A stretch of DNA of 47,074 nucleotides from an uncultured Chlamydiae bacterium (GTDB taxonomy: Bacteria; Chlamydiota; Chlamydiia; Chlamydiales; Parachlamydiaceae). A program made the position numbers and the translations under genes. How positions within the stretch are numbered: the stretch's first letter is position 1; every line of letters starts with the position of its first letter. Below are positions 5,868-37,785 of the stretch, one piece after another. The notes below the pieces were generated by a model. That model was not told the origin of the DNA. It was given only the letters and a program-made list of their open reading frames with translations, and ran no database searches. The stretch is from assembly GCA_963830365.1 (NCBI GenBank), contig CAWHMU010000028.1:1-47074 (forward strand). Direction: 5' to 3'.

Positions 5868-6803
5868 CTAGCAGAGGCTTTTTTTAACCGTTTTTTTGCA
5901 AAGGGTTTCCTTGGCGCTATTGACCAGCTGCGTAACCTCGTTGGCTAATCGGTCAGCTTCTTTTATTGTCGGCGCTTCAGGGAACGGTTTTTTATCGGGA
6001 TGGACGTGCAGCATCGCTTCGCGATGCCTAGTTTTGACGTATGCACAGCCCTGTTTGCAATAGAGATCTTTTTCAAAAGGTTTTACATAGGAAAGGGCAT
6101 CCATCGCGTCCTGGGGGTCTTGACCATCCAGCCCGGATTCAAGGATCTGCTGGGGGATACTCTTGAGAGCTGCCTGGGCCGGCTGCTTCCAGACCCTATG
6201 CGACAGCCAGGAAATGGCAGACCCTACATAATCTTCCCCTGCATACAGGCGCTTGGTGTAGACGGTGTTCCAGTCATTTCGCAAACTGTCGAACGCCTCG
6301 AAGCACTTTATTTGGAAGGAGGCTTTTGCCTCCGTGATCTTGCAGTCCATCCACGGGTTTTCCTGCAGGCACCCTTCCTCACTCCATTGATCCAATAGCG
6401 GTTTGAACTGGCCATTCGTCCGGCAGAAATTGACATAGGCAGAGCGGTCCTTTTCGAATAGGCCGTTCAACTTGTCTGCAGTGGCTGCTGTCTCTTTGTA
6501 AGCTGCTATGGCAGGATCATTATAGGCTTCCCATTTAGCCCTTCCATCATCGATGACGGACTGGATCCTGGCTGGCCAAAATTTTAGAATTTCCGCATTG
6601 GCAGTTGTGCAGTTGCTGATAAGATCGTTGGATGAAGATTGGGAGGAAAGGAAAACGATCGCAGCCGCGGCTGCCACGCTCGTAGCGATGGCGGCAACGG
6701 TGTTTTCGCCGATGGTGGTGTTGAAAAAAGAATTCAATATGCCGACGGCTGAAGAGACAAAGTTCGGGTACTGGCTGGCTGAGAAATTAAGGTTTATAGT
6801 CAT
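5868..6803 (-). CDS. protein with a hydrophobic segment and a C-terminal DnaJ(J)-like domain
   Basis: C-terminal HREAMLHVHPDK...TQLVNSAKETL matches J-domain helix II-HPD-helix III. ATG at 6803 preferred over TTG at 6815. Confidence 0.7.
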   Translation of the reverse strand: MTINLNFSASQYPNFVSSAVGILNSFFNTTIGENTVAAIATSVAAAAAIVFLSSQSSSNDLISNCTTANAEILKFWPARIQSVIDDGRAKWEAYNDPAIAAYKETAATADKLNGLFEKDRSAYVNFCRTNGQFKPLLDQWSEEGCLQENPWMDCKITEAKASFQIKCFEAFDSLRNDWNTVYTKRLYAGEDYVGSAISWLSHRVWKQPAQAALKSIPQQILESGLDGQDPQDAMDALSYVKPFEKDLYCKQGCAYVKTRHREAMLHVHPDKKPFPEAPTIKEADRLANEVTQLVNSAKETLCKKTVKKSLC

Positions 6804-27281: not shown

Positions 27282-27490
27282 ATAGACCTCCGAGAGAAAC
27301 TATATTCTTTATTATACTACTTAAAATTTGTTTGTCATATGAAATTAAATAAAATATTTGTTTTAATCCTTAAGTTATTGTTCTTGTGATGTCTGTAATA
27401 AGGTTCGCTTAAAAGTAATTTGACATTTTTTTTCCAATATTGTATTTTCATAGTTAGTTAAACTTAAACATGCCAGATAAGGAGGTCGTT

Positions 27491-27982
27491 ATGTCATCAC
27501 GAATCGATGCAGGATCAAGCCAAACACCCAGTTTTTATGGATCACCAACTAAGGCGTTATCCCCGGCTGAACAACAAAAACGTAAGAGTCATGAAGAATT
27601 GATTGCTATAGCTAAGCAGTCTTTGGCAATTTCACAAGAAACTCTTGCAAATAGTAAAGAAGAACTGGCGATGACTCTGATGACTCTAGAAACTGCTAAG
27701 CAATCCAAGGCCCTCATTTCAGCACACATAGAAGCTGTGGATGCCAAATTAAAAGAGTCAGAAGACAAACTTCAAAATCTTGGAGCCAAAAGCCAGGAAA
27801 TTGAAGCAAGAGAACAAGATCTTGCTGCTAGAAAAGTAGAAATTGAAGCGCGAAAACAAGAAATCGCCGAACGAAAGGCCAAGATTGCCGCCCAAAGAGC
27901 GATGATTATGGAAAACGCAGCAAAAAGAGCAGCGGCAAATAATGCGGCCTCCGGTGCTGTTAGCAAAGAAGGAAAAGATTAA
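27491..27982 (+). CDS. hypothetical coiled-coil protein
   Basis: AAGGAGG RBS before ATG 27491; heptad repeats (SQEIEAREQDLAARKVEIEARKQEIAER). Confidence 0.8.
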   Translation: MSSRIDAGSSQTPSFYGSPTKALSPAEQQKRKSHEELIAIAKQSLAISQETLANSKEELAMTLMTLETAKQSKALISAHIEAVDAKLKESEDKLQNLGAKSQEIEAREQDLAARKVEIEARKQEIAERKAKIAAQRAMIMENAAKRAAANNAASGAVSKEGKD

Positions 27983-28014
27983 CTCAGACTCCGGTCAGAC
28001 TCTTATTCGGACGT

Positions 28015-28126
28015 GGGGTCAGGCCTGACATGCTGACATTCGACTAGGCTGGCAGGTACAAGGCTAGAGGTTTAGGTAGGCAAAATGAGCATCGTTTTGC
28101 CTACCCATCCATTCCTAGGCATGTAG
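28015..28126 (+). repeat. GGGGTCAGG REP plus conserved long hairpin, copy 1
   Basis: GGGGTCAGGCCTGACATGCTGACATTCGACTAGGCTGGCAGG then GGTAGGCAAAATGA-gca-TCGTTTTGCCTACC; related copies near 34792 and 36168. Confidence 0.75.
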
Positions 28127-28138
28127 AATACCACAATA

Positions 28139-28405
28139 CCAAGCCTGACCCCATGTGTGACCCCATGTGCTGACCCCATGTCCTGAGGCTCATCACGCAA
28201 ATGAGTACCTATGAGGTTTTCCTGACCTTCTCTGTGCCTCTGTGGTGAAATCTGCTTTCTGGCGGTATAGTATTATTAATCAAAGCGTTACGAAAGACTT
28301 CACCACCGAGGCACAGAGGCACAGAGAAGGGAAATGGAGATTGCTCTTAGGGTTTTGTTAATTAGGTACTCATTTGCGTGATGAACCATGTGCTGACCCC
28401 ATGTC
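28139..28405 (+). repeat. tandem 12-13-bp CCTGACCCC-derived array interrupted by a MITE
   Basis: CCAAGCCTGACC CCATGTGTGACC CCATGTGCTGACC CCATGTCCTGA[MITE]ATGTGCTGACC CCATGTCC. Confidence 0.85.
28187..28387 (+). mobile_element. 201-bp MITE (family B)
   Basis: TIRs GGCTCATCACGCAAATGAGTACCT / AGGTACTCATTTGCGTGATGAACC; flanks ATGTCCTGA / ATGTGCTGA. Confidence 0.9.
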
Positions 28406-28424
28406 CAAATAAAGGAAAATTGAC

Positions 28425-29438
28425 ATGAAAGCAAAAAAACGTTCACTTGTCTTTATTATGCTGTGCATGTGCCACTATATTTCATTTTCGGTTTACGCCA
28501 TCAGCCCTTTTGAAAAACATCCCCAGGATGCTACCGTCATTTATCTTAGAGGCACGTGCTCTTCTGGCAAATCTACTCTTATTCGATCTATCGTACAGGA
28601 ATGTGATTTAGAACTTGTGGATGAAGACTCAATCATGCAGAGAAGCTACCTCGAAGCTGTTGCCCTGCGATTCCCTTGCAAATTTATCATAATTAACAAA
28701 GCAGTGGCTAGAGAAAATCTCTACCATGCACTCCGAGAAAAAGATATTCTTTTTAAAAAAACAGCTTCCCTTGAGGACTCCCAAAAAGCTAAAAATGCTT
28801 TATGTGAAATTCAAGAAGAATTAAATAATCCACAAAATTTACTTTGGAAGAAGGCATTAAGCGATGGAATCAATACAGAAGTAATACAAAGACTTAAAGA
28901 GGCTATCGAACGGCGAAAAAATGTCATTCTCGATTCTTGGTATGTCAAAGAACATCATATCCAAGAACTTTTTCCGAATGTACAAATCATCCGAGTCTTG
29001 CTATATTGTTCTCTTCCTGTTGCTTATAATCGGCTTCTTAAAAGGAATGAAGAGGCTATTGATAGGGAAAATCTTCAGGAAAAAAGGTATTTAAGGCAAT
29101 TATTTGGCAGCTTTACCGCGCTTTATCAAATCAGTGATCAGCCACTGCAACCTATTCACAGCATTTATAGGCATGAATTAGATCAGGTTTTTGACGCTAT
29201 TTTACTTCCACTCAAAGATATAGCGTACCAGAAACCTATCTTCACTTTTGAAGAAATTACACGACCACTGTTTATGAAAATGAAAATGGCGTTTTTACAA
29301 CCGTTTGACGAATGCAAATCGGAAAATTTATATATCGCTCCAAAAAACGCGCAGGATGTTATTATTGATAATACAAGTAATAATATTCAAAATGCCGTCC
29401 ATTCTTTAAAAAAAGCCCTTTCAAAGCAAAAGTCGTAG
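28425..29438 (+). CDS. P-loop NTPase/small-molecule kinase-like protein with a possible signal peptide
   Basis: VIYLRGTCSSGKST Walker A, NVILD Walker B-like, LYCSL..AYNRL..RN lid; hydrophobic N-terminus ending VYA. Confidence 0.7.
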   Translation: MKAKKRSLVFIMLCMCHYISFSVYAISPFEKHPQDATVIYLRGTCSSGKSTLIRSIVQECDLELVDEDSIMQRSYLEAVALRFPCKFIIINKAVARENLYHALREKDILFKKTASLEDSQKAKNALCEIQEELNNPQNLLWKKALSDGINTEVIQRLKEAIERRKNVILDSWYVKEHHIQELFPNVQIIRVLLYCSLPVAYNRLLKRNEEAIDRENLQEKRYLRQLFGSFTALYQISDQPLQPIHSIYRHELDQVFDAILLPLKDIAYQKPIFTFEEITRPLFMKMKMAFLQPFDECKSENLYIAPKNAQDVIIDNTSNNIQNAVHSLKKALSKQKS

Positions 29439-29699
29439 CTATACGAATCGAAGAACATTTCTAAGCAACGTCATCGGAAAAATTCTAATTCCAAACCCCT
29501 GCTTTTATACGAGCATCTAGTTGAAATTTCCCAAACGCGGGGGCAGGCCTAGGCTGTCAAAAAGCTCAATATTCTATCTCAACGACTTTTTTATATATGC
29601 GTCTGTTTCTCTTCCGTTCAAAATTGCTATCAGCATCTAAAAAAGCTGTGAAATCCAGGCAAAATGGATCCCATATGGCGGTTCAGGCCGAAAGATTGT

Positions 29700-30750
29700 G
29701 GTCAGGCTTGGTATTCGGGTATTCGTTTCTTTAGTTATTCATTCTTAGAGGATCCTGTAACCAACGGCGCATATCCTCCACGTTCTGGGCAGCTGTTGGG
29801 TTACTGATGACCTTGATTTCGAAGCGGCTTGCAAGTTGTGTTAAAGTACTTGGATCTCTCCCAAGAATATTTGCCAGGCTTGCGAATGAAATATGGTTGG
29901 TTTTTCTCACAAAAAAAGCCAATAGCGCACGTGCAAGGGAATTTTTGGCGTGCTTCCCAGGCATGCACAACTGCTCGTGAGTGATGTTATGAATTTCACA
30001 AACTTTTGTTATAAGGTCAGTTAACTCTATTTTTTTGTGTTTTATTGCGCACGTTGTTACCATAATTTCTTCGACAAATGCTCGATTACCAATCATTCCT
30101 GCAATGCAACCCGATTTAAAGTCGAATTCTGTTTCGACACCAATCCCTTTCAAAACATACCTCTCATAATTTCTGATGACATTTTTGGGTTCGATGTCGA
30201 ATTTTTTCAAAACTCGTTCCTTGGTCAGCCAACTAAATTCGTCTAGTTCAAAATAGGCTCTATGGCTACTCCAAAAGTATTGTAGAGGATCAGACACCAA
30301 TTTTGCACGGACTGGATTAAGATGGATATACCGTATAAGTTCCTTGAGATAATCCTCATCATCAATAAGAATGGATTTGAATCGCCCCTGAAATAGGTGC
30401 CCAATGCGTTTGTACTTTCGATTGATATAACGAGTATAGCGGAAAGCAAGATGCTGCATAATGCGGGAAATGCTTATATCGGCTACTCGCACCGCCAAAT
30501 GGATGTGATTCGACATCATACAAAAAGCTTCAATGCTGTGGCCAAAACGCTCAACACCTTGTTGCATGAGCAGGCACAACCTTGATGTATCTCCCTCAGA
30601 AAAGAAGATAGGTTGACCATCATTGCCCCTGAGCATCACGTGGTAGGTTGAAGTAGGGGAGTGGAATCTTTGTCGTCTTGCTATAATTCAAAGAATTTAT
30701 AGTCAAGCGGGATAGAGCGCAAGGAAAATACCCGAATACCAAGCCTGACC
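29700..30750 (-). mobile_element. RAYT-like element bounded by perfect 24-bp inverted repeats
   Basis: GGTCAGGCTTGGTATTCGGGTATT (29700-29723) is the exact reverse complement of AATACCCGAATACCAAGCCTGACC (30727-30750). Confidence 0.85.
29731..30684 (-). CDS. Y1 HUH transposase (IS200-like / REP-associated tyrosine transposase) with a C-terminal HTH
   Basis: YHVMLRGN, AFCMMSNHIHL (HUH), GHLFQGRFKS, RYIHLNPVRA (catalytic Tyr) and YFWSS motifs; C-terminal ARALLAFF..SFASLANILGRDPST HTH. The conserved N-terminus extends to an ATA at 30684. Confidence 0.92.
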   Translation of the reverse strand: MARRQRFHSPTSTYHVMLRGNDGQPIFFSEGDTSRLCLLMQQGVERFGHSIEAFCMMSNHIHLAVRVADISISRIMQHLAFRYTRYINRKYKRIGHLFQGRFKSILIDDEDYLKELIRYIHLNPVRAKLVSDPLQYFWSSHRAYFELDEFSWLTKERVLKKFDIEPKNVIRNYERYVLKGIGVETEFDFKSGCIAGMIGNRAFVEEIMVTTCAIKHKKIELTDLITKVCEIHNITHEQLCMPGKHAKNSLARALLAFFVRKTNHISFASLANILGRDPSTLTQLASRFEIKVISNPTAAQNVEDMRRWLQDPLRMNN

Positions 30751-30793
30751 CCAAGCCTGACCCCAAGTCTGACCCCAAGTGTGACCCCAAGTG
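30739..30793 (+). repeat. tandem 12-bp REP array (4.5 units)
   Basis: CCAAGCCTGACC x2, CCAAGTCTGACC, CCAAGTGTGACC, CCAAGTG. Confidence 0.92.
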
Positions 30794-31131
30794 CGTACGG
30801 ATCTGTGAGAGCTCATGAGGTGAGATTCCTTTGCGCTACTCGACGTTCTAGCGGAACTGCAATTTAGGCATCTGTTGGAGCATGAGCTTTGGCTAACGGA
30901 AACGGAGGCTAGAAAACTTTTAGTGCCACAGGCTGCCAAATCACGGGGAAGAGAGCCTCAGCTAAATCTAACGAATGCAGGTGAATCGCAGAGCTGACTT
31001 CTTATGTGTTTTATATTGTCTTAAAAAGGCTTAAGGATTAAGTTTTTATCACGGACAAGAAATAGATTTGAAAACATTTTTTGGAATTGAAAGTCAGAAC
31101 GTGACTGCATGTTTATCCAAAGGGGTCATGA

Positions 31132-31359
31132 ATGAATAGAGATGTACTAGGTAGAGCAGAACTTGAAGCGCTTAAATTAAATTGGAATCCTTGTAAAGCA
31201 GGTTTAATGGGTGGACGTTGTGCAGCCACAGGAACCTGTGATAATAGGCCAGAATATAGTGCACGAAAGATCACTAATATAGAAAATCAAAAAATTCATT
31301 TGTTAGGGTATTCAAGGAGTGCTAAAGACATTAGGCTTAAATATGGCCCATTATGTTGA
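31132..31359 (+). CDS. candidate RiPP precursor peptide (75 aa)
   Basis: AAGGGG RBS; ELEAL...LMGG followed by RCAATGTCDN; overlaps the start of the LanM-like gene. Confidence 0.65.
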   Translation: MNRDVLGRAELEALKLNWNPCKAGLMGGRCAATGTCDNRPEYSARKITNIENQKIHLLGYSRSAKDIRLKYGPLC

Positions 31360-32926
31360 TGAAATAAGTGTGCAGGATGGGTTCAGAGCTCAATTTTTCT
31401 TAAGCTCTATAGAAAAAGAATTGAGGAAAATTGAAGATGCTGTAAGTGATCTCATGATCTTTTCTAGAACCATCCAGGAGGTTTTGCAAGAGTTTTCTGA
31501 TTCTCTTGCAACCGAATTAGATCGAATCTTTTTGCCTACGGTAGTTTTTGAGCTGGAGAAGGCCAAAAGGAACGGTGATTTATCTGGAAATTCTGCAACA
31601 GCTCGGTATGAAAGTTTTTTTGTAGATGGGAATAAGTATACTAAACATACATACTCAATTTTGGAAAAATACCCTTTCCTTTTTGAATTATCTGAAAACC
31701 TAATTGTTCAAACGTTTGACTCTCTCCTCAGAAGTCTAAGGAGATATAAAGAAAATGAACTGGAGTTGAAAAAGTGGAATCAATTTCCTCCGAATATTCT
31801 AATTCATAAAATTAAGCCTCTTGATGGAGCGGATCGACATTCTTCTCAACAAACACTTCTCTTTGAATTTTCCAATGGTTTGAAGGTCATTTATAAGCCC
31901 GTTGATCTTAGGCCAGATCTTCTTTTAGCTCGTTTTATTGAAAAGTTAGAGTTACAGGACCCTTTTAATTTGAAGTCTTTAGAGGTTTTTGCCTTACCTG
32001 AATATGGATGGATTAAATTTATCGATTTTGAAAAATGCGAAAATACGCAAGAAATTGAGGATTTTTACTGTAGAACAGGTGTTTTGCTTGCGGTAGCAGA
32101 TAGTCTGAATTATACGGATGGCCACTGCGAAAACTTGTTTGCTAAAAGAGCTTTCCCTATTTTAATTGATGGAGAAACACTATTTCAAAATTACGAACCG
32201 CCTGTTATAGACGATAAAAGCATCCTTACAACCCTTTTAATTCAGAAGATAAATGATCAAGATGAAAATCGTTTTCTTAACTCTGCACTTCAAGCTCCAG
32301 ATGGGATAAAGTATGAGTATTTGAAGACTCATGCTATTCACGATCAAACAGATGATATTGAGGTGCGCTATCAAGGAATTAATGATTCTCCCCATCATCA
32401 TTGCCCTTGGTTGAATGATGAATCTTGCCCTGCTCACAAATATGTTTCTTTTATTATCAAAGGATATTGCTATGGCTACAGAAAGATTACAGAAAAGCTA
32501 GACTCCATTGTTAATGATAAAAACTGGTGGAGGGCTGTTGGTAAAGTTCGTGGGCGTGTTTTGTTACGTGAAACAATTTCTTATGTCTATTTACTGAGGA
32601 ACATACAGCTGCCGGAACAGCTTGTAGCTCGGAAAAAAGCTGAATCGATTCTATTACAAAAACTTGGATCAACCTGTTATAGCCAATACGAAGCGGATGA
32701 TCTTTTGTCATTAAATATTCCGTATTTTTATCAAATTCCAAGAAAAAAACATCTTTATGATAGCAAAGGGTACAAATACCCAAACGTTTTTGGAGAAACA
32801 GCTATTGCTAGATTGAAAAAGCAATTCCTACAGCGAAGTGACAAAAAAATGAATTTTGGTTGCGATATTCTATCTCGACATTTGGTACCGCCTTTTATGG
32901 AAGAATTGGAAATGTCATCAATATGA
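31343..32926 (+). CDS. lanM: LanM-type dehydratase domain (DUF4135) protein lacking the LanC cyclase domain
   Basis: GADRH, VIYKP, YGWIKF, TDGHCEN, ILIDGETLF, RVLLRETISY and NIPYFY motifs; ends at ~527 aa. Confidence 0.9.
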   Translation: MAHYVDEISVQDGFRAQFFLSSIEKELRKIEDAVSDLMIFSRTIQEVLQEFSDSLATELDRIFLPTVVFELEKAKRNGDLSGNSATARYESFFVDGNKYTKHTYSILEKYPFLFELSENLIVQTFDSLLRSLRRYKENELELKKWNQFPPNILIHKIKPLDGADRHSSQQTLLFEFSNGLKVIYKPVDLRPDLLLARFIEKLELQDPFNLKSLEVFALPEYGWIKFIDFEKCENTQEIEDFYCRTGVLLAVADSLNYTDGHCENLFAKRAFPILIDGETLFQNYEPPVIDDKSILTTLLIQKINDQDENRFLNSALQAPDGIKYEYLKTHAIHDQTDDIEVRYQGINDSPHHHCPWLNDESCPAHKYVSFIIKGYCYGYRKITEKLDSIVNDKNWWRAVGKVRGRVLLRETISYVYLLRNIQLPEQLVARKKAESILLQKLGSTCYSQYEADDLLSLNIPYFYQIPRKKHLYDSKGYKYPNVFGETAIARLKKQFLQRSDKKMNFGCDILSRHLVPPFMEELEMSSI

Positions 32927-34701
32927 AAACTATATATTCTGCATACAAAACTTTCTCGTGGTCGCTCAAGCAGCTTTTCAATGCAGCACCATATGAAACC
33001 AGTTTTCTTTTGATATTTGTATTTTTTCAGGGATTGATTCCTGCCGCATCTCTCTATGCGATAAAAGGAATTATCCAGTGGGTAAATTCATCTTTTACAT
33101 TTCCACTTTTATTTGTTGCTCTCTGGGGAGGGATGCTATTAGCGGATATTGTCTTGAGTCCGGTTATTGCTGTAGTTCGGCTTCATTTAAATGAAAAAAT
33201 ATTAAGTTTTTGTAATGTTTTGCTAATGGAGAGGGCACACACAATTCAAGGCTTGAGTTCATTTGAAAACCCAAAGTTCTACGATGAAATCCAATTTTTA
33301 AAAAATGAATCTTCAAAACGTCCGTTAAATCTTGTCTACGTTCTTACTGGGTTCTTGAAAGAAGGTATAGCTCTGTTGTCAGTACAGATAGTTTTAAGTA
33401 CCCTCGAGTGGTGGATTCCGATTGCTATGCTCTTAGCTAGCCTACCTCATGCCTTATCGACTCTTTGGTTTGAAAAGCAGTCATGGGATCAGATGCTTTT
33501 TCGCAGTCCAGAAGCGCGAAAACTAGCTTGGATTGGTTCCTTATCATTAGATGATCATGTTGCAAAAGAAGTCCGTCTGTTCGGTTTTGGGGATTTTTTA
33601 GTACAGCGATATAAAGAATTAGCCAAATCAATGCATCAAGCATTGTCTAAGGCAAGATGGAAGAAATCTGCAGCTTCAGTTTTTTTATCTTCTTTGACTG
33701 TCATTGGTTATGTTTTTATTGTGAGTGTTGTTCTGCTCCAAACAAAAGATAAGAATTTGGAAATAAGTGGTTTAGTTGTTATTATACAATCGCTTGTTAT
33801 GACTCAATCTCAACTGATAGGTTGTATTTCATACCTAGGTATGACAACTCCGATTCTACTTTTTTTTTCCAAGTTACGCTTATTCCTTTTTTCATCGGTT
33901 TGCTCTATTCCAGAAAATCAATCAATGATTTGTCCTGGGTTTCAGCATGAAATTTGCTTTGAAAATGTTTCGTTTTCATATCCGGACGGCCGAGAAGCTC
34001 TTCAGAATGTGAGTTTCAAAATTCAAAAAGGGGAAAAAATTGCTATTGTGGGTCCAAATGGCGCAGGTAAATCTACAATAGTAAAACTCATATTGCGTTT
34101 TTACGACCCCTCAACAGGTTCTATTACTGTGGATGGGCATGACTTAAAGGATATAGACATAATGGCTTGGCGTTCGGTTATAAGTGGTGTTTTCCAAGAT
34201 TTTGGACGCTATCATTTTACGGTGGGTGAAAATATTGCTTTAGGAAATATTAATGCCTCTGAAGAACAGATTTGTCATGCAGCAAAAAAGGGAGGTTTTA
34301 CTCCTATTTTAAAGCAATTGCCCCAAGGATTAAACGCTCTTTTAGGAAAAGAATTTGGAGGAACGTCACTTTCAGGAGGAGAATGGCAAAAATTGGCTAT
34401 GTCACGCGCCTTTCTCCGTGAGGCAAAGTTCTTAATCTTGGACGAGCCAACATCGTCACTTGATCCAGAAAGTGAATTTGAAGTTTTTAATAAATTTGCA
34501 GATGCAGTGCAGGGGAAAACGGCTCTTCTGATCACCCATCGTCTTGGTTCAGCAAAAATGGCTGATAGAATTCTGGTCTTTAAAAATGGTCGTCTGATCG
34601 AAACAGGCTCTCATCAGACGTTACTTAATACACAAAGCGAGTATGCGCTGCTTTATATGTTACAAGCCAATCAGTATAAGCATACAACCAAATCAGTATA
34701 A
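32923..34701 (+). CDS. ABC exporter (TMD+NBD), NisT/LanT-like without a C39 peptidase
   Basis: AKEVRLFG, GPNGAGKST, LSGGEWQKLAMSRAF, ILDEPTSSLD and ITHRL motifs; ATGA overlap with the upstream stop. Confidence 0.92.
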   Translation: MKTIYSAYKTFSWSLKQLFNAAPYETSFLLIFVFFQGLIPAASLYAIKGIIQWVNSSFTFPLLFVALWGGMLLADIVLSPVIAVVRLHLNEKILSFCNVLLMERAHTIQGLSSFENPKFYDEIQFLKNESSKRPLNLVYVLTGFLKEGIALLSVQIVLSTLEWWIPIAMLLASLPHALSTLWFEKQSWDQMLFRSPEARKLAWIGSLSLDDHVAKEVRLFGFGDFLVQRYKELAKSMHQALSKARWKKSAASVFLSSLTVIGYVFIVSVVLLQTKDKNLEISGLVVIIQSLVMTQSQLIGCISYLGMTTPILLFFSKLRLFLFSSVCSIPENQSMICPGFQHEICFENVSFSYPDGREALQNVSFKIQKGEKIAIVGPNGAGKSTIVKLILRFYDPSTGSITVDGHDLKDIDIMAWRSVISGVFQDFGRYHFTVGENIALGNINASEEQICHAAKKGGFTPILKQLPQGLNALLGKEFGGTSLSGGEWQKLAMSRAFLREAKFLILDEPTSSLDPESEFEVFNKFADAVQGKTALLITHRLGSAKMADRILVFKNGRLIETGSHQTLLNTQSEYALLYMLQANQYKHTTKSV

Positions 34702-34729
34702 GAAGATTGAAATGAGGTCACATTGAGAT

Positions 34730-34962
34730 AGGGTCAGGTTGGTATTTTAGTATTTTCTTGCGAGGAATATACCAAGGCTGACCTCACACTCGGGGTCAGG
34801 CCTTACATTCTGACATTTGACTAGGTTAGCAGGTGCAAGGGGCCAAGGCGATAGACATGCAAGATGAGGATCATTTTGCACACCTATCGTCTTGACCCTT
34901 TGCGTTTTTTATAAAACATTGGAAATTTGAACACGGGGCCAGGCTTTACATGCTGACATTTT
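34730..34962 (+). repeat. REP cluster with conserved hairpin copy 2
   Basis: AGGGTCAGGTTGGTAT...ATACCAAGGCTGACCT palindrome, GGGGTCAGGCCTTACATTCTGACATTTGACTAGG plus hairpin, and GGGGCCAGGCTTTACATGCTGACATT. Confidence 0.8.
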
Positions 34963-35003
34963 CCTTGTTATCATAGTCACTGCTCATTATGTTCATGATA
35001 ATC

Positions 35004-35292
35004 ATGGCAAGACGACAGAGATTCCATTCACCAACTTCTACCTGCCACGTTATGCTTAGGGGTAACGATGGACAATCCAAAACAATCCCAGGCGCGCGCA
35101 TTACTGGCTCTTTTAGTCAGAGAATACGAGGGTCTCTCGCTTGAAAGTCTTGCAAAGCTTCGAGGAAGAGATGCAAGCGGTCTGACTAAACTAGCCAACC
35201 GTTTGGAAATTAAGAGTACGCAAGATGAAATACTTGCTCAGCAAGTGACGGAAATGTGTCGTTGGTTGTTGAATTCCGCTTGCGCAGCCTAG
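35004..35292 (+). pseudogene. internally deleted copy of the RAYT-like transposase
   Basis: ATG 35004 encodes MARRQRFHSPTSTCHVMLRGNDGQ, almost identical to the intact copy's N-terminus. It is joined out of frame to the C-terminal HTH (ARALLALLVR..SLAKLRGRDASGLTKLANRLEIK) and followed by GCCTGACCCC. Confidence 0.9.
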
Positions 35293-35371
35293 AATGTCAG
35301 AATCTCATGCCTGACCCCGGGCACAAAGACTTATGGAAAAAAAATAGAACGTATAACTGAAAAGGCAGCAT

Positions 35372-35917
35372 ATGAAAGAATCGTTTAAGAAATATTGGAT
35401 ATATTATTTAGCTTTCATCTTTTTTATTTTAGGCATGTTCTATTATAGCAAAGCTTATGCATATGATCATTTCGCATATGACCATGAAGGAAATGCCTAC
35501 TGTTTTCAGCATCCCTTAGCTATAAAACACATGGATATGTATCTCGAGATGCAGCACATAGATATGCATCAGCTTCGTGCTCTTGCTCATCATGATTGCA
35601 AGACAAACGCTCAAAAAGTTCAATTTTACAATGAAAACGGAGAGCGTTGCTCCAAAGACACCAAAGATAGATGTTAGTGGTTACCAAATGTATCTGAAAG
35701 GGATAAGGCGCGTTATTGCTTTTCAACCTTCGGTATTTTAGCTACTCCAGGAGAGCCTAGATCTAAAATTATTATCGCAGTAATAAATGCCCTTATTCAA
35801 TACGGATTAGATTGTAGCGATGAATGGCACTACATAAATAATAAGCTTTATTGGAGCCAATATCACTTTGAAATGATGGAGTTTCATCAAGATCTAATAA
35901 AACACGGATATCCTTGA
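35372..35917 (+). pseudogene. hypothetical exported protein interrupted by an in-frame TAG
   Basis: Signal-peptide-like N-terminus; after TAG 35675-35677 the same frame stays open for 79 codons (WLPNVSERDKARYCF...HGYP*). Confidence 0.65.
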
Positions 35918-36084
35918 CCCCTTGTCGTTACCCACAACTATCAATCAAATAATTTAAGTTATTTTTTGCAGAGCCATTTCCATTCGATCGCGCATGTCTT
36001 GCAGTCTAATCCAGCCTTTCCAGATTTTTTGCCATCCCGGATTTCCGTCCGATTTCCGTGCTAAAAACCCTCCTAACATAGCAC

Positions 36085-36263
36085 TCGGGGTCAGGTCTGA
36101 CATTCTGACATTGAACTCGGGGTCACAACTCGGGTTCAGGCCTGGGCTGTCAAAAAACTCTGGATAAGGCCTGACATTCGACTAGGTTAGCAGATGCAAG
36201 GGCCAGGGCGATAGGTTTGCAAGATGGGAATCATTTTGCGCGCCTGCCGCTCTGGCCTTTTGT
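36085..36263 (+). repeat. REP cluster with conserved hairpin copy 3
   Basis: CTCGGGGTCAGG, CTCGGGGTCAC and CTCGGGTTCAGG, then CTGACATTCGACTAGGTTAGCAG plus hairpin. Confidence 0.8.
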
Positions 36264-36438
36264 GTGCTTGTTTTTAATAAGTTTTTGGCTCTGGCGCGGG
36301 CACGAAAAGTGGACCATATGGACTAAATAGGCTATATGGACAACAGCTAATGGACAGGCAAATGCCATATTTTGGGCACGGGCAGGCTGATACTATAGTG
36401 GAAGTCTGTGCATAATTGGAACAGGGCTGTGTGCTGCG

Positions 36439-37122
36439 TCAGTTCTTGGCGCTTTGGGCTGAGGTTACTTTGGCTTGTGCCGCGGTGAAGCGTGCTTCTG
36501 CGGCGGCGGCGCTTTCAGCCGCAGCCACGGCTTTGGCGTCGGCGTGGTCGACGGCTGAAAAAGCGGCTGCCGCTGCTTTGGCCAGGACATCGGCGGCTAG
36601 TACGTCGGCGGCAGCGGCATTAAGTTCTGCCAATGTGGCCGCGGCTTTTGCTGGGGTATCGCCTCTTCTAACGGTAGCGGCGCGGGCTTCAGCGGCAATT
36701 TCGCGCAAGGCGGCGGCGCTGACATGTATGTCGGCGGTTTCATGAGCTGCTAGGGCTCGTTTCATGGCTGCGGCAGTGGCAGCCGTTGCCATGGCTGCAA
36801 GGTCTCTTGTCTTGGCTGCGATTTCTCTTGCTGTGGCAGCGGCCGTTGCTAAGGCTGTGGCTGAGGCGCTCTCTTGGCCGGGCGCAAACGCCTTGGCCGC
36901 CAATAGGGCAATGGCGGCGGCGCAGGCGCAGCCTATTAAAGCAACTTTTGCCAGTGTGGCGATGCGGGGCTGCTGCCAGGCGGACACAGGGGTTGGATTC
37001 TTTTTTTGGTATTTTGTATTGCGAGGCCGCGCCTCATGGGGAAGACTAAAGTCAGTGGTATAAAAGCCGTCAAGACCGTTTGGGAAGCTAGCGTAAGTAT
37101 ACTGAAATGAATTAAAAGGCAT
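36439..37122 (-). CDS. alanine-rich hypothetical protein with one TM segment
   Basis: 227-aa ORF; hydrophobic VALIGCACAAAIALLAA followed by an Ala-rich helix. Confidence 0.65.
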   Translation of the reverse strand: MPFNSFQYTYASFPNGLDGFYTTDFSLPHEARPRNTKYQKKNPTPVSAWQQPRIATLAKVALIGCACAAAIALLAAKAFAPGQESASATALATAAATAREIAAKTRDLAAMATAATAAAMKRALAAHETADIHVSAAALREIAAEARAATVRRGDTPAKAAATLAELNAAAADVLAADVLAKAAAAAFSAVDHADAKAVAAAESAAAAEARFTAAQAKVTSAQSAKN

Positions 37123-37303
37123 GTATAGTATTTTGGTTGGTTGTGTCTGTGAAATTATAGTTAGTTTATTAAACTATCACATGGCTGTTTAATTTGCAAA
37201 TGTTCAGTGAGTGATAAGAATAAGCTTTGGGGAACGCCGCCTTGAGCTAACTTTTAAAAAACAATAGTGCAGGAACTCTGGGTAGATGTGTCGGCTGAAC
37301 GGC

Positions 37304-37511
37304 TTGGGGTCAGGCTTGCGATTTGCGATTTGAAAGCTGTTGGGACTTCCTGAATGCGCTTTAGGACTTTCAAATCACAAATCACAAGCCAGACCCCAAT
37401 CCTCAAACTTCAATTAGGCTGGCGATTTACGATTTGAAAGCTGCTGGGACTTCCTGAATGCGCTTTAGGACTTTCAAATCACAACTCACCGGCCAGGCCC
37501 CAATCCTCAAA
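37304..37511. repeat. tandem pair of GGGGTCAGG-type REPIN palindromes
   Basis: TTGGGGTCAGGCTTGCGATTTGCGATTTGAAAG...CTTTCAAATCACAAATCACAAGCCAGACCCCAA, followed by a degenerate second unit. Confidence 0.85.
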
Positions 37512-37633: not shown

Positions 37634-37707
37634 GTTCTCGTAGCTCAGTTGGATAGAGCGGTTGCCTCCTAAGCAACAGGCCGCGCGTTCGAATCGCGCC
37701 GAGGACA
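37634..37707 (+). tRNA. tRNA-Arg (anticodon CCT)
   Basis: Acceptor GTTCTCG/CGAGGAC, D arm TAGCTCAGTTGGATAGAGC, anticodon arm GTTGC-CTCCTAA-GCAAC, T arm GCGCG-TTCGAAT-CGCGC; CCA not encoded. Confidence 0.96.
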
Positions 37708-37785
37708 CATTTCCAAGGACACATTTCCAAGGACACATTTCCAAGGACATATTTCTAAGGTCACATTTCCAAGGTCATATTTCCG
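37702..37785 (+). repeat. 14-bp tandem repeat x6 starting in the tRNA 3' end
   Basis: AGGACACATTTCCA x3, AGGACATATTTCTA, AGGTCACATTTCCA, AGGTCATATTTCCG. Confidence 0.93.

What the first reader, a model, noticed from the sequence alone, without database searches (positions are those of the whole stretch)
28015..36263. RAYT/REP-delimited cassette island: possible Y1-transposase gene-capture system
Seen: more than 15 GGGGTCAGG (F) / CCTGACCCC (R) motifs are concentrated here. F...R pairs enclose the intact transposase, the deleted copy and small palindromes. AT-rich cargo lies between an R and the next F: the kinase gene starts ~25 nt after R; the RiPP operon ends ~30 nt before F; the 35372 gene starts ~55 nt after R and has another R-like motif at its stop. 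The two transposase copies point outward on either side of the RiPP operon. Known: RAYTs cleave at REPs and spread REPINs, but are usually described as non-mobile and cargo-free. Inference: REP-bounded cassettes accumulate here in an integron-like or composite-transposon-like manner.
Basis: partly seen in the sequence, partly recalled or inferred. Interest (0 to 1): 0.78.

Follow-up and report, generated by a model that had tools for sequence, protein, structure and literature searches.

The report
TIRtron graveyard beside imported genes
The repeats are the inverted ends of a known but barely studied mobile element (a tyrosine-transposase "TIRtron") whose whole, broken and miniature copies pile up between imported genes; the element likely moves on its own, and it may sometimes drag neighbouring genes along, which is hinted at in other loci but not shown here.

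Summary
The motif cluster is real: 7 exact and 17 near-exact copies in 8.2 kb, the densest stretch of the genome. The motifs are not hairpin REPs. They are GGGGWSAS terminal inverted repeats of TIRtrons (TIRYT, RAYT group 1/subclass 2.1.2), described in 2013 and met by this scan in 13 earlier findings on other DNA. The island holds one full element, a deleted element of a different lineage, mini-doublets, and pieces of three unrelated IS/MITE types. It is neither an integron nor a composite transposon. None of 47 loci with cargo homologues has a TIRYT within 1.5 kb, and DNA similarity between genomes stops at the repeats. Against the literature, TIRtrons do appear to move as units: 98-99.6% identical copies at separate sites, and empty alleles in sibling species. 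In six other loci (one in this genome), a 194-784 bp duplicate of host DNA starts right outside a repeat array, and five enclose passenger genes. That suggests occasional one-ended capture. The window has a similar but old and ambiguous ~100 bp triplication. No close relative or reads were available to test it.

The parts
28015..28118 (+). Module A copy 1: type-A arm (GGGGTCAGG + GACAT-type heptamers) followed by a long hairpin
   Evidence: 76% to 34792-34888; folds, z -5.2 for 28010-28155; only three copies in the genome, all here, and only the arm matches in 7 of 72 family genomes
28119..28186 (.). Type-B R arm with tandem end array; direct copy of the full element's 5' end
   Evidence: 82% over 63 nt to 30719-30780
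28187..28387 (.). ISL3-type MITE inserted in the R array, with a 9-bp target duplication (one mismatch)
   Evidence: 230 such ends genome-wide; the same ends enclose an ISL3 transposase on C37; duplication read from the sequence
28388..28406 (.). Last unit of the R array, displaced by the MITE
   Evidence: 21-nt direct repeat with 28163-28183
28425..29438 (+). P-loop kinase-like gene (AAA_33), low GC
   Evidence: in 14 of 400 genomes of the order, G000 included
29539..29692 (+). Half repeat followed by the end of an unrelated IS (GGCTGTC.. ends) that inserts at the centre of the repeat
   Evidence: related C1 element is a DDE_Tnp_1/DUF772 transposase, best NCBIfam match IS1182, below cut-off
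29696..30792 (-). Full TIRtron, type B: 28-nt inverted ends, Y1 transposase with DnaA_C-like tail (29731-30681), tandem array at the 5' end
   Evidence: motifs NHIH and YIHLNP present; first codon ATA
31132..34701 (+). RiPP-like operon: 75-aa precursor candidate, stand-alone DUF4135 (LanM N-terminal half), ABC exporter
   Evidence: same order in G035 without repeats
34730..34785 (.). Degenerate type-B mini-doublet (F...R, no gene)
34792..34930 (+). Module A copy 2, starting 6 nt after the mini-doublet's R
   Evidence: (z -5.6)
34935..35318 (+). Internally deleted TIRtron, type A: 24 N-terminal codons joined out of frame to a C-terminal remnant
   Evidence: C-terminal part closest to type-A elements L023/L024/L027
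35372..35917 (+). Pseudogene of a 176-183 aa family of unknown function (premature stop at codon 102)
   Evidence: no Pfam or NCBIfam match for the intact G010 homologue
35918..36080 (.). End fragment of an unrelated IS/MITE (about 48-bp end found in many inverted pairs about 490 bp apart)
   Evidence: 90% match beside a transposase-like ORF in G011; IS4-like is my recollection, no Pfam match
36087..36263 (+). Module A copy 3, with an end array and a short IS-end insert
   Evidence: 86% over 76 nt to copy 2
37296..37511 (.). Two type-C doublets of the genome-wide family, just 5' of tRNA-Arg(CCT) 37634-37708
   Evidence: 60 type-C arms in the genome

Best explanation
The island is a variable stretch of a likely chlamydial chromosome holding one full, one deleted and several miniature TIRtrons between low-GC accessory genes, and these IS-like elements likely hopped in beside genes that probably arrived by other routes. 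Shown: the element is a HUH/Y1 transposase gene with a DnaA-like DNA-binding tail between ~28-nt inverted ends; relatives occur as near-identical copies at separate sites with ends at the repeats; ends are tandemly amplified; unrelated IS and MITEs insert into the repeats. Inferred mechanism: the enzyme binds the heptamer repeats inside each end, nicks single-stranded DNA a few bases outside the GGGG, and joins that end to a second position at variable distance. A short jump would give the 11-13 nt end arrays, a longer jump the duplicated ends and internal deletions, and paired cuts a move of the whole element. R-gene-F then arises for any gene between two such elements.
For: Y1_Tnp + Bac_DnaA_C and GGGGTCAG = GGGGWSAS match the TIRYT description. 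Matches in 38 of 400 genomes of the order, often 3-5 per genome, most with 24-40+ nt inverted ends. Copy pairs of 99.6% (G274), 99.5% and 98% (G221) end at the arrays. The second G274 copy sits at a site without a TIRtron in 4 of 4 sibling species mapped. Of 15 matches (>=75%, >500 nt) among 52 elements, 13 end at the repeats, at a duplicated end or inside the element; one was the same contig held twice, one a split hit. Cargo homologues: 0 of 13, 0 of 14 and 0 of 20 loci have a TIRYT within 1.5 kb; 3 of 47 have a bare motif, 1 with real context (an IS end); control 23 of 30 TIRYT loci positive. The two window transposases are different lineages. Cleavage more than 400 nt from the binding site and strand transfer are shown for E. 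coli TnpAREP (PMC3333891 passages), not for TIRYT.
Against: This is the densest cluster in the genome and all 4 type-A arms lie here. Three diverged copies of module A divide the island into two blocks; copy 2 begins 6 nt outside an R and ends just before an F. This resembles six loci where a long host duplication starts at an R array. The cargo homologues tested are distant (best matches about 42-64% amino-acid identity to the queries, many lower), flanks were at most 1.5 kb, and cassettes can lose their vehicle. All near-identical copy pairs are within 5.5 kb of each other, and two of the genomes have few contigs (7 and 10), so assembly error is possible.
Confidence: 0.6

Rival explanations
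1. One-ended capture. The enzyme cuts just outside an R end and joins it to a point upstream, making a circle of end + neighbouring genes + a piece of host DNA. The circle integrates by homology and leaves host piece - cargo - repeat - host piece. The island would be two such insertions, each duplicating module A.
For: Six loci in three genomes have a 194-784 bp direct duplication (88.7-99.2%) whose second copy starts within about 10 nt of the last array unit: G274 (406, 323 bp), G409 (236, 194, 652 bp), G000 C45 (784 bp). Five enclose passenger ORFs. For each, the chance of an end that close is 0.02-0.08; a seventh, older case (C36) fails. The 323-bp case (two TIRtrons + a 154-aa ORF) is empty in G072, with repeats at both junctions. 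In G091 a 4.1-kb insert (TIRtron + 2 ORFs) splits an efflux operon that is intact in 2 of 2 siblings; one junction is about 40 nt from the repeat, the other is not at a repeat. In the window, module A copy 2 starts 6 nt after an R.
Against: Such duplications also arise without these repeats: 11 of 12 low-copy duplications examined in G000 have no repeat motif between the copies, and the G035 homologue of the 35372 gene lies in a 252-bp duplication with none. Loci were chosen for holding repeats. Module A itself starts with a repeat arm, so its copies may be independent minis; they are only 76-86% alike. The left block starts with an R, not an F. No cargo was seen with TIRs at two sites.
Confidence: 0.27
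2. Composite transposon or integron-like array: paired outward ends define discrete cassettes that the enzyme excises and inserts precisely at a dedicated site.
For: R-gene-F recurs in G000 C20, G274 and G221. In G035 the transposase gene itself lies between two identical doublets. G002 has two 97.7% minis around five ORFs. All three cargo blocks here are on one strand.
Against: The flanking transposases differ (46% in the C-terminal part) and carry different arms. No short target duplication was found around the elements. No integrase among the island ORFs scanned. Cargo edges are not tight. 0 of 47 homologue loci are TIRYT-linked.
Confidence: 0.08
3. The repeats are mainly passive targets: host recombination and unrelated IS elements that aim at the palindromic repeat centre built the island, and the Y1 enzyme played little part.
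For: IS ends follow the repeat centre at 29552 and 36145, on C1 and C41, and in three 99% copies in G409. 28 of 60 type-C arms lie in or beside ISL3-type MITEs. REP-targeting IS are known (PMC1525189, search listing only).
Against: It does not explain type-A and type-B arms that track transposase clades, nor whole-element copies ending at the repeats.
Confidence: 0.05

Closest known systems
TIRtron / TIRYT (Di Nocera, De Gregorio, Rocco 2013, PMC3733652; passages and section 16 read) = TnpA-Y1 subclass 2.1.2 (Quentin et al. 2018, PMC6006769; passages, sections 20 and 30 read) = RAYT group 1 (Bertels et al. 2017, PMC5581495; passages read; equivalence as stated in 10.1101/2020.03.09.984088)
   Same: HUH/Y1 core, C-terminal DnaA_C-like HTH, inverted ends with GGGGWSAS, dispersed repeat doublets and clusters. 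Bertels found group 1 the most IS-like RAYT group (6.3% duplicates).
   Different: Those papers state no evidence of mobility for class 2 genes and describe no cargo or flanking duplications in the passages read. Here relatives show near-identical copies, empty alleles and long duplications at the ends.
REPtron / RAYT groups 2-3 (E. coli TnpAREP; PMC3333891 and PMC8266576, passages read)
   Same: Same enzyme superfamily; local amplification of repeats; distant cleavage and strand transfer give a model for the arrays.
   Different: No GTAG-tagged hairpin REP; longer protein with an HTH tail; several copies per genome.
IS91 / ISCR one-ended capture (review PMC9330008, passages read)
   Same: HUH enzyme that can take flanking DNA when the second cut is displaced; a functional analogue of the rival model.
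   Different: Y2 enzyme with ori/ter ends, not inverted repeats. The link to target duplication by homologous integration is my recollection of the ISCR1 model.
[quoted passage not shown]
   Same: Accessory genes between two long copies of the host junction.
   Different: Described with no other mobile element; in six loci here one junction falls at a TIR array.
TnpAREP-prochlorosin association (bioRxiv 10.1101/2020.03.09.984088, whole text read)
   Same: Same subclass beside RiPP genes, with many truncated copies.
   Different: No inverted repeats found there, and the authors' added note finds no strong evidence for or against causation. Here the RiPP link occurs once (0 of 20 other DUF4135 loci).

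Membership tests
TIRtron/TIRYT (subclass 2.1.2) | HUH motif and catalytic Tyr of Y1 transposases | tested here: met
   Y1_Tnp E 5.5e-13; NHIH and YIHLNP; NF047646 71.7 bits, cut-off 80
TIRtron/TIRYT (subclass 2.1.2) | Gene framed by terminal inverted repeats rather than hairpins | tested here: met
   28-nt arms, 96%; a single arm does not fold
TIRtron/TIRYT (subclass 2.1.2) | GGGGWSAS in the repeats | tested here: met
   GGGGTCAG at the 5' end; the 3' end has one change
TIRtron/TIRYT (subclass 2.1.2) | C-terminal Bac_DnaA_C-like HTH | tested here: met
   E 3.8e-07, 30.5 bits, 1 bit under the curated cut-off; DnaA models match residues 200-306
TIRtron/TIRYT (subclass 2.1.2) | Placement in a tree with the published subclass 2.1 references | not tested
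   The tree held only relatives fetched here; the papers' supplements were not seen
REPtron (RAYT groups 2/3) | GTAG-tagged hairpin REPs beside the gene | tested here: not met
   Flanks are non-folding inverted arms
REPtron (RAYT groups 2/3) | Element does not move as a unit | tested here: not met
   98-99.6% copies ending at the repeats, and empty alleles in siblings
Composite transposon | Two near-identical IS copies flanking the cargo | tested here: not met
   46% amino-acid identity in the C-terminal part, different arms
Composite transposon | Short target duplication around the unit | tested here: not met
   None at the window's element or consistently at about 50 loci screened
Integron | Adjacent tyrosine recombinase (IntI) | tested here: not met
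   No integrase domain in the 10 ORFs of the island and its flanks
Integron | attC sites | not tested
   No attC model was run; Rfam gave only the tRNA above threshold
Integron | Cassette genes recur with their site in other arrays | tested here: not met
   0 of 47 homologue loci TIRYT-linked
IS91/ISCR | Y2 transposase with ori/ter ends | tested here: not met
   Y1_Tnp, no Y2_Tnp
IS91/ISCR | One-ended uptake of adjacent genes (works-like test) | tested here: inconclusive
   Signature in six other loci; ambiguous in the window
IS91/ISCR | Circular single-stranded intermediate | not testable with these tools
   No sequencing run was listed

The most novel reading that the evidence does not exclude
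TIRtrons are an unrecognised family of true mobile elements whose Y1 enzyme cuts just outside a GGGG end and joins it at variable distance. Lone ends and mini-doublets then act in trans as one-ended capture sites that circularise neighbouring genes with a piece of host DNA and build accessory islands, this one included, by insertion with long target duplication. This would be an ISCR-like gene-capture route and an enzyme for a scar so far without one.
Probability: 0.3. Interest if true: 0.78.

Novelty: new member of a known kind. Interest (0 to 1): 0.45.

Why it matters
RAYT-like Y1 enzymes are described as domesticated and immobile, and no biochemistry of the TIR-flanked subclass turned up in my searches. 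The relatives examined here give filled and empty sites, near-identical copies, and six precise junctions that predict a cut position a few bases outside the GGGG. This makes both unit mobility and one-ended capture directly testable. The window itself is an old, cluttered example and does not prove capture.

Tried and rejected
Reads: no sequencing run was listed for 27400-37300, so no circle or joint test was possible.

Empty allele of this island: G000 is the only genome of its genus in the sample. None of 12 family loci around the conserved amidase gene holds homologues of the island's flanking genes in place, and the region 5' of tRNA-Arg differs among them.

tRNA-att island: rejected for the window, which has no second copy of the tRNA 3' end.

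Module A as a known RNA or a widespread element: no Rfam family; beyond the arm, not found in 72 family genomes apart from a weak 57-nt match in G409.

Plasmid copies: no match at E 1e-30 in 72,556 plasmids.

Short target duplication: none consistent.

A fused empty palindrome (F directly joined to R) is absent from G000.

The 35913 and 31122 motifs were rejected as repeats.

The first duplication count (9 of 15, expected 0.82) was too generous. I dropped 5 rows that are parts of the elements or their arrays, leaving 6 of 10, of which 5 are unique host DNA and 1 is an IS91-type end.

The automatic arm labelling mostly failed; arm types come. The tree is the quick version. G117 was not scored.
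Full report
Setting. The window is contig C28 of G000 (2.73 Mb, 48 contigs, 82% complete). The named records nearest to the transposase are Chlamydiae/Parachlamydiales MAGs, so a chlamydial host is inferred. Names of backbone genes below (recF, rpsI, yqgE, kdsD, nhaD, amidase, Rhs, CRISPR type) are my recognition from sequence unless a call is cited.

Observation. There are 7 exact and 17 near-exact motifs in 28015-36263, against 0.21 and 1.5 expected from the genome mean; it is the densest window of the genome. The motif is also dispersed: 68 exact copies. A looser count of 141 includes 60 of a type-C arm, 28 of them in or beside ISL3-type MITEs. All 4 type-A arms are in the island. Cargo genes are in the lowest 0.5-2% of ORFs for GC, though the left flanking genes are also AT-rich.

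What the element is. The ORF at 29731-30681 has Y1_Tnp and Bac_DnaA_C domains, NHIH and YIHLNP motifs and 28-nt inverted ends that do not fold alone. This is the TIRtron/TIRYT of Di Nocera 2013 (GGGGWSAS), which Quentin 2018 says probably corresponds to subclass 2.1. Its first codon is ATA and its 3' end has a changed G, so it may be decaying. The deleted copy (34935-35318) belongs to another lineage: its C-terminal remnant is 46% identical to the full protein and closest to elements with type-A arms. The island also holds an ISL3-type MITE in an R array, two ends of an IS that inserts at the repeat centre and an end of a third IS type. That third end, together with the stop codon of the 35372 pseudogene, creates the motif at 35913.

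Does the element move? Relatives were found in 38 of 400 genomes of the order and in 18 metagenome loci, in many contexts and mostly with near-perfect inverted ends. G019, another genus, has a 79% identical element between kdsD and nhaD with the match ending at the repeats, while its amidase gene matches at 74%. G274 and G221 carry pairs at 98-99.6% whose limits are the end arrays. The site of the second G274 copy lacks a TIRtron in 4 of 4 siblings mapped, one of them with no insert at all. Among 52 elements, 13 of 15 long matches end at the repeats, at a duplicated end or inside the element; one was a duplicate record and one a split hit. Of 8 matches outside the gene, one was a shared neighbouring gene at 65% (G029/G109) and the others were element parts. 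The unit that travels between genomes is thus the element alone. This conflicts with the statement that there is no evidence of mobility for class 2 genes and fits Bertels' note that group 1 is the most IS-like. Caveat: all near-identical pairs are local, and some assemblies may contain errors.

Is the cargo a cassette? The kinase, DUF4135 and 35372 families are patchy (14, 20 and 13 of 400 genomes including G000). In 47 loci outside G000, none has a TIRYT within 1.5 kb and 3 have a bare motif, one of them beside an IS end; 23 of 30 TIRYT loci were positive as control. The homologues are distant and the flanks short, but a 14-kb view of the whole RiPP operon in G035 also shows no repeat. Closeness to genes is not diagnostic: 19 of 42 edges of 21 elements chosen by hand lie within 60 nt of an ORF, 15 of them at 3' ends. 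R-gene-F follows from placing F...R elements in neighbouring spacers.

Evidence for capture. In six loci a long duplicate of host DNA starts at the outer edge of an R array: G274 406 bp (element only, both junctions at repeats) and 323 bp (two elements and one ORF, empty in G072); G409 236, 194 and 652 bp; and G000 C45 784 bp at 99.2% around three ORFs, one with a DnaJ domain. The per-locus chance is 0.02-0.08, and one older case fails. Against this: the loci were picked for holding repeats; 11 of 12 duplications examined in G000 have none of the motifs between the copies; and a homologue of the 35372 gene sits in such a duplication without repeats. Long target duplications are a described scar, and displaced second cuts are known for IS91-type enzymes. 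In the window, a ~100-nt arm-plus-hairpin module occurs three times (76-86%). Copy 2 begins 6 nt after an R and ends just before the deleted element's F. This fits two insertions with target duplication, but also independent minis.

Mechanism. Shown: anatomy, unit copies, end arrays and duplicated ends of 82-857 bp, and junction positions. Inferred by analogy with E. coli TnpAREP, which cleaves more than 400 nt away and transfers strands: cutting a few bases outside the GGGG and joining at variable distance. I found no biochemistry or cargo report for TIRYT in six searches. The library lacks most subscription papers, and I saw no supplements. A RiPP link for this subclass was proposed in cyanobacteria and left open by its authors. 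This scan has 13 earlier findings with these words on other genomes; the 8 shown all name TIRtrons, most without shown capture. These are unchecked notes and were not used as support.

Verdict. A new member of a known, poorly studied kind. The integron and composite readings are not supported. Unit mobility is well supported from relatives. One-ended capture is plausible (about 0.3) and testable. Interest 0.45.

Noticed in passing
window 31132-34701; L011 5069-8705 (G035): Three-gene RiPP-like operon with a stand-alone LanM N-terminal (DUF4135) enzyme lacking the cyclase half, a 75-aa Cys-containing precursor candidate and an ABC exporter; about six close homologues (38-48%) in the order. Product unknown.
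   Followed up: partly
G000 genome-wide; example window 28187-28387: Large ISL3-derived MITE family (about 111 paired elements, mostly 190-540 bp) with different internal palindromic modules, including GGGGTCAGG doublets.
   Followed up: partly
G000 C41 75776-77537, C1 1633-2123; L235, L237, L239 (G409): IS elements with GGGCTG ends insert at the palindromic centre of the TIR, duplicating 4-6 bp; three 99% copies in G409.
   Followed up: partly
L254 (G000 C45 106286-110261 and 110186-122231): Two stacked long duplications: 784 bp starting at an R array, and 854 bp around about 10 kb that includes two IS91-type Y2 transposases.
   Followed up: partly
L196 (G000 C20 42700-52000): Two 92% identical TIRYT copies, each after a tRNA or its duplicated 3' part and a BIME-like array of about 226-nt units, followed by different cargo (beta-lactamase fold, AAA_28, AbiE pair; then a 142-aa ORF).
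   Followed up: partly
L236 9776-10066 (G409): A short CRISPR-like array (type I-F-like repeat by my recollection, one spacer repeated) lies directly between an R and an F array.
   Followed up: no
L025 1008-3854 (G020): An AEP-TOTE helicase ORF whose possible start codon and first codons lie inside the TIRtron's R end.
   Followed up: no
L016 5313-6388, L086-L088, L080: Variants in which the transposase gene lies between two complete palindromic doublets, or in which the GGGG points outward.
   Followed up: no
21 elements: Element edges often abut the stop codon of the neighbouring gene (15 of 26 3' ends within 60 nt, against 4 of 16 5' ends).
   Followed up: partly
window 36439-37122 (-): Ala-rich, 59% GC ORF with no Pfam or NCBIfam match, converging on the island.
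   Followed up: no
L012 5302-5553 / 6407-6658 (G035): The homologue of the 35372 gene sits inside a 252-bp duplication of a transporter gene's 3' end, with no TIR.
   Followed up: partly
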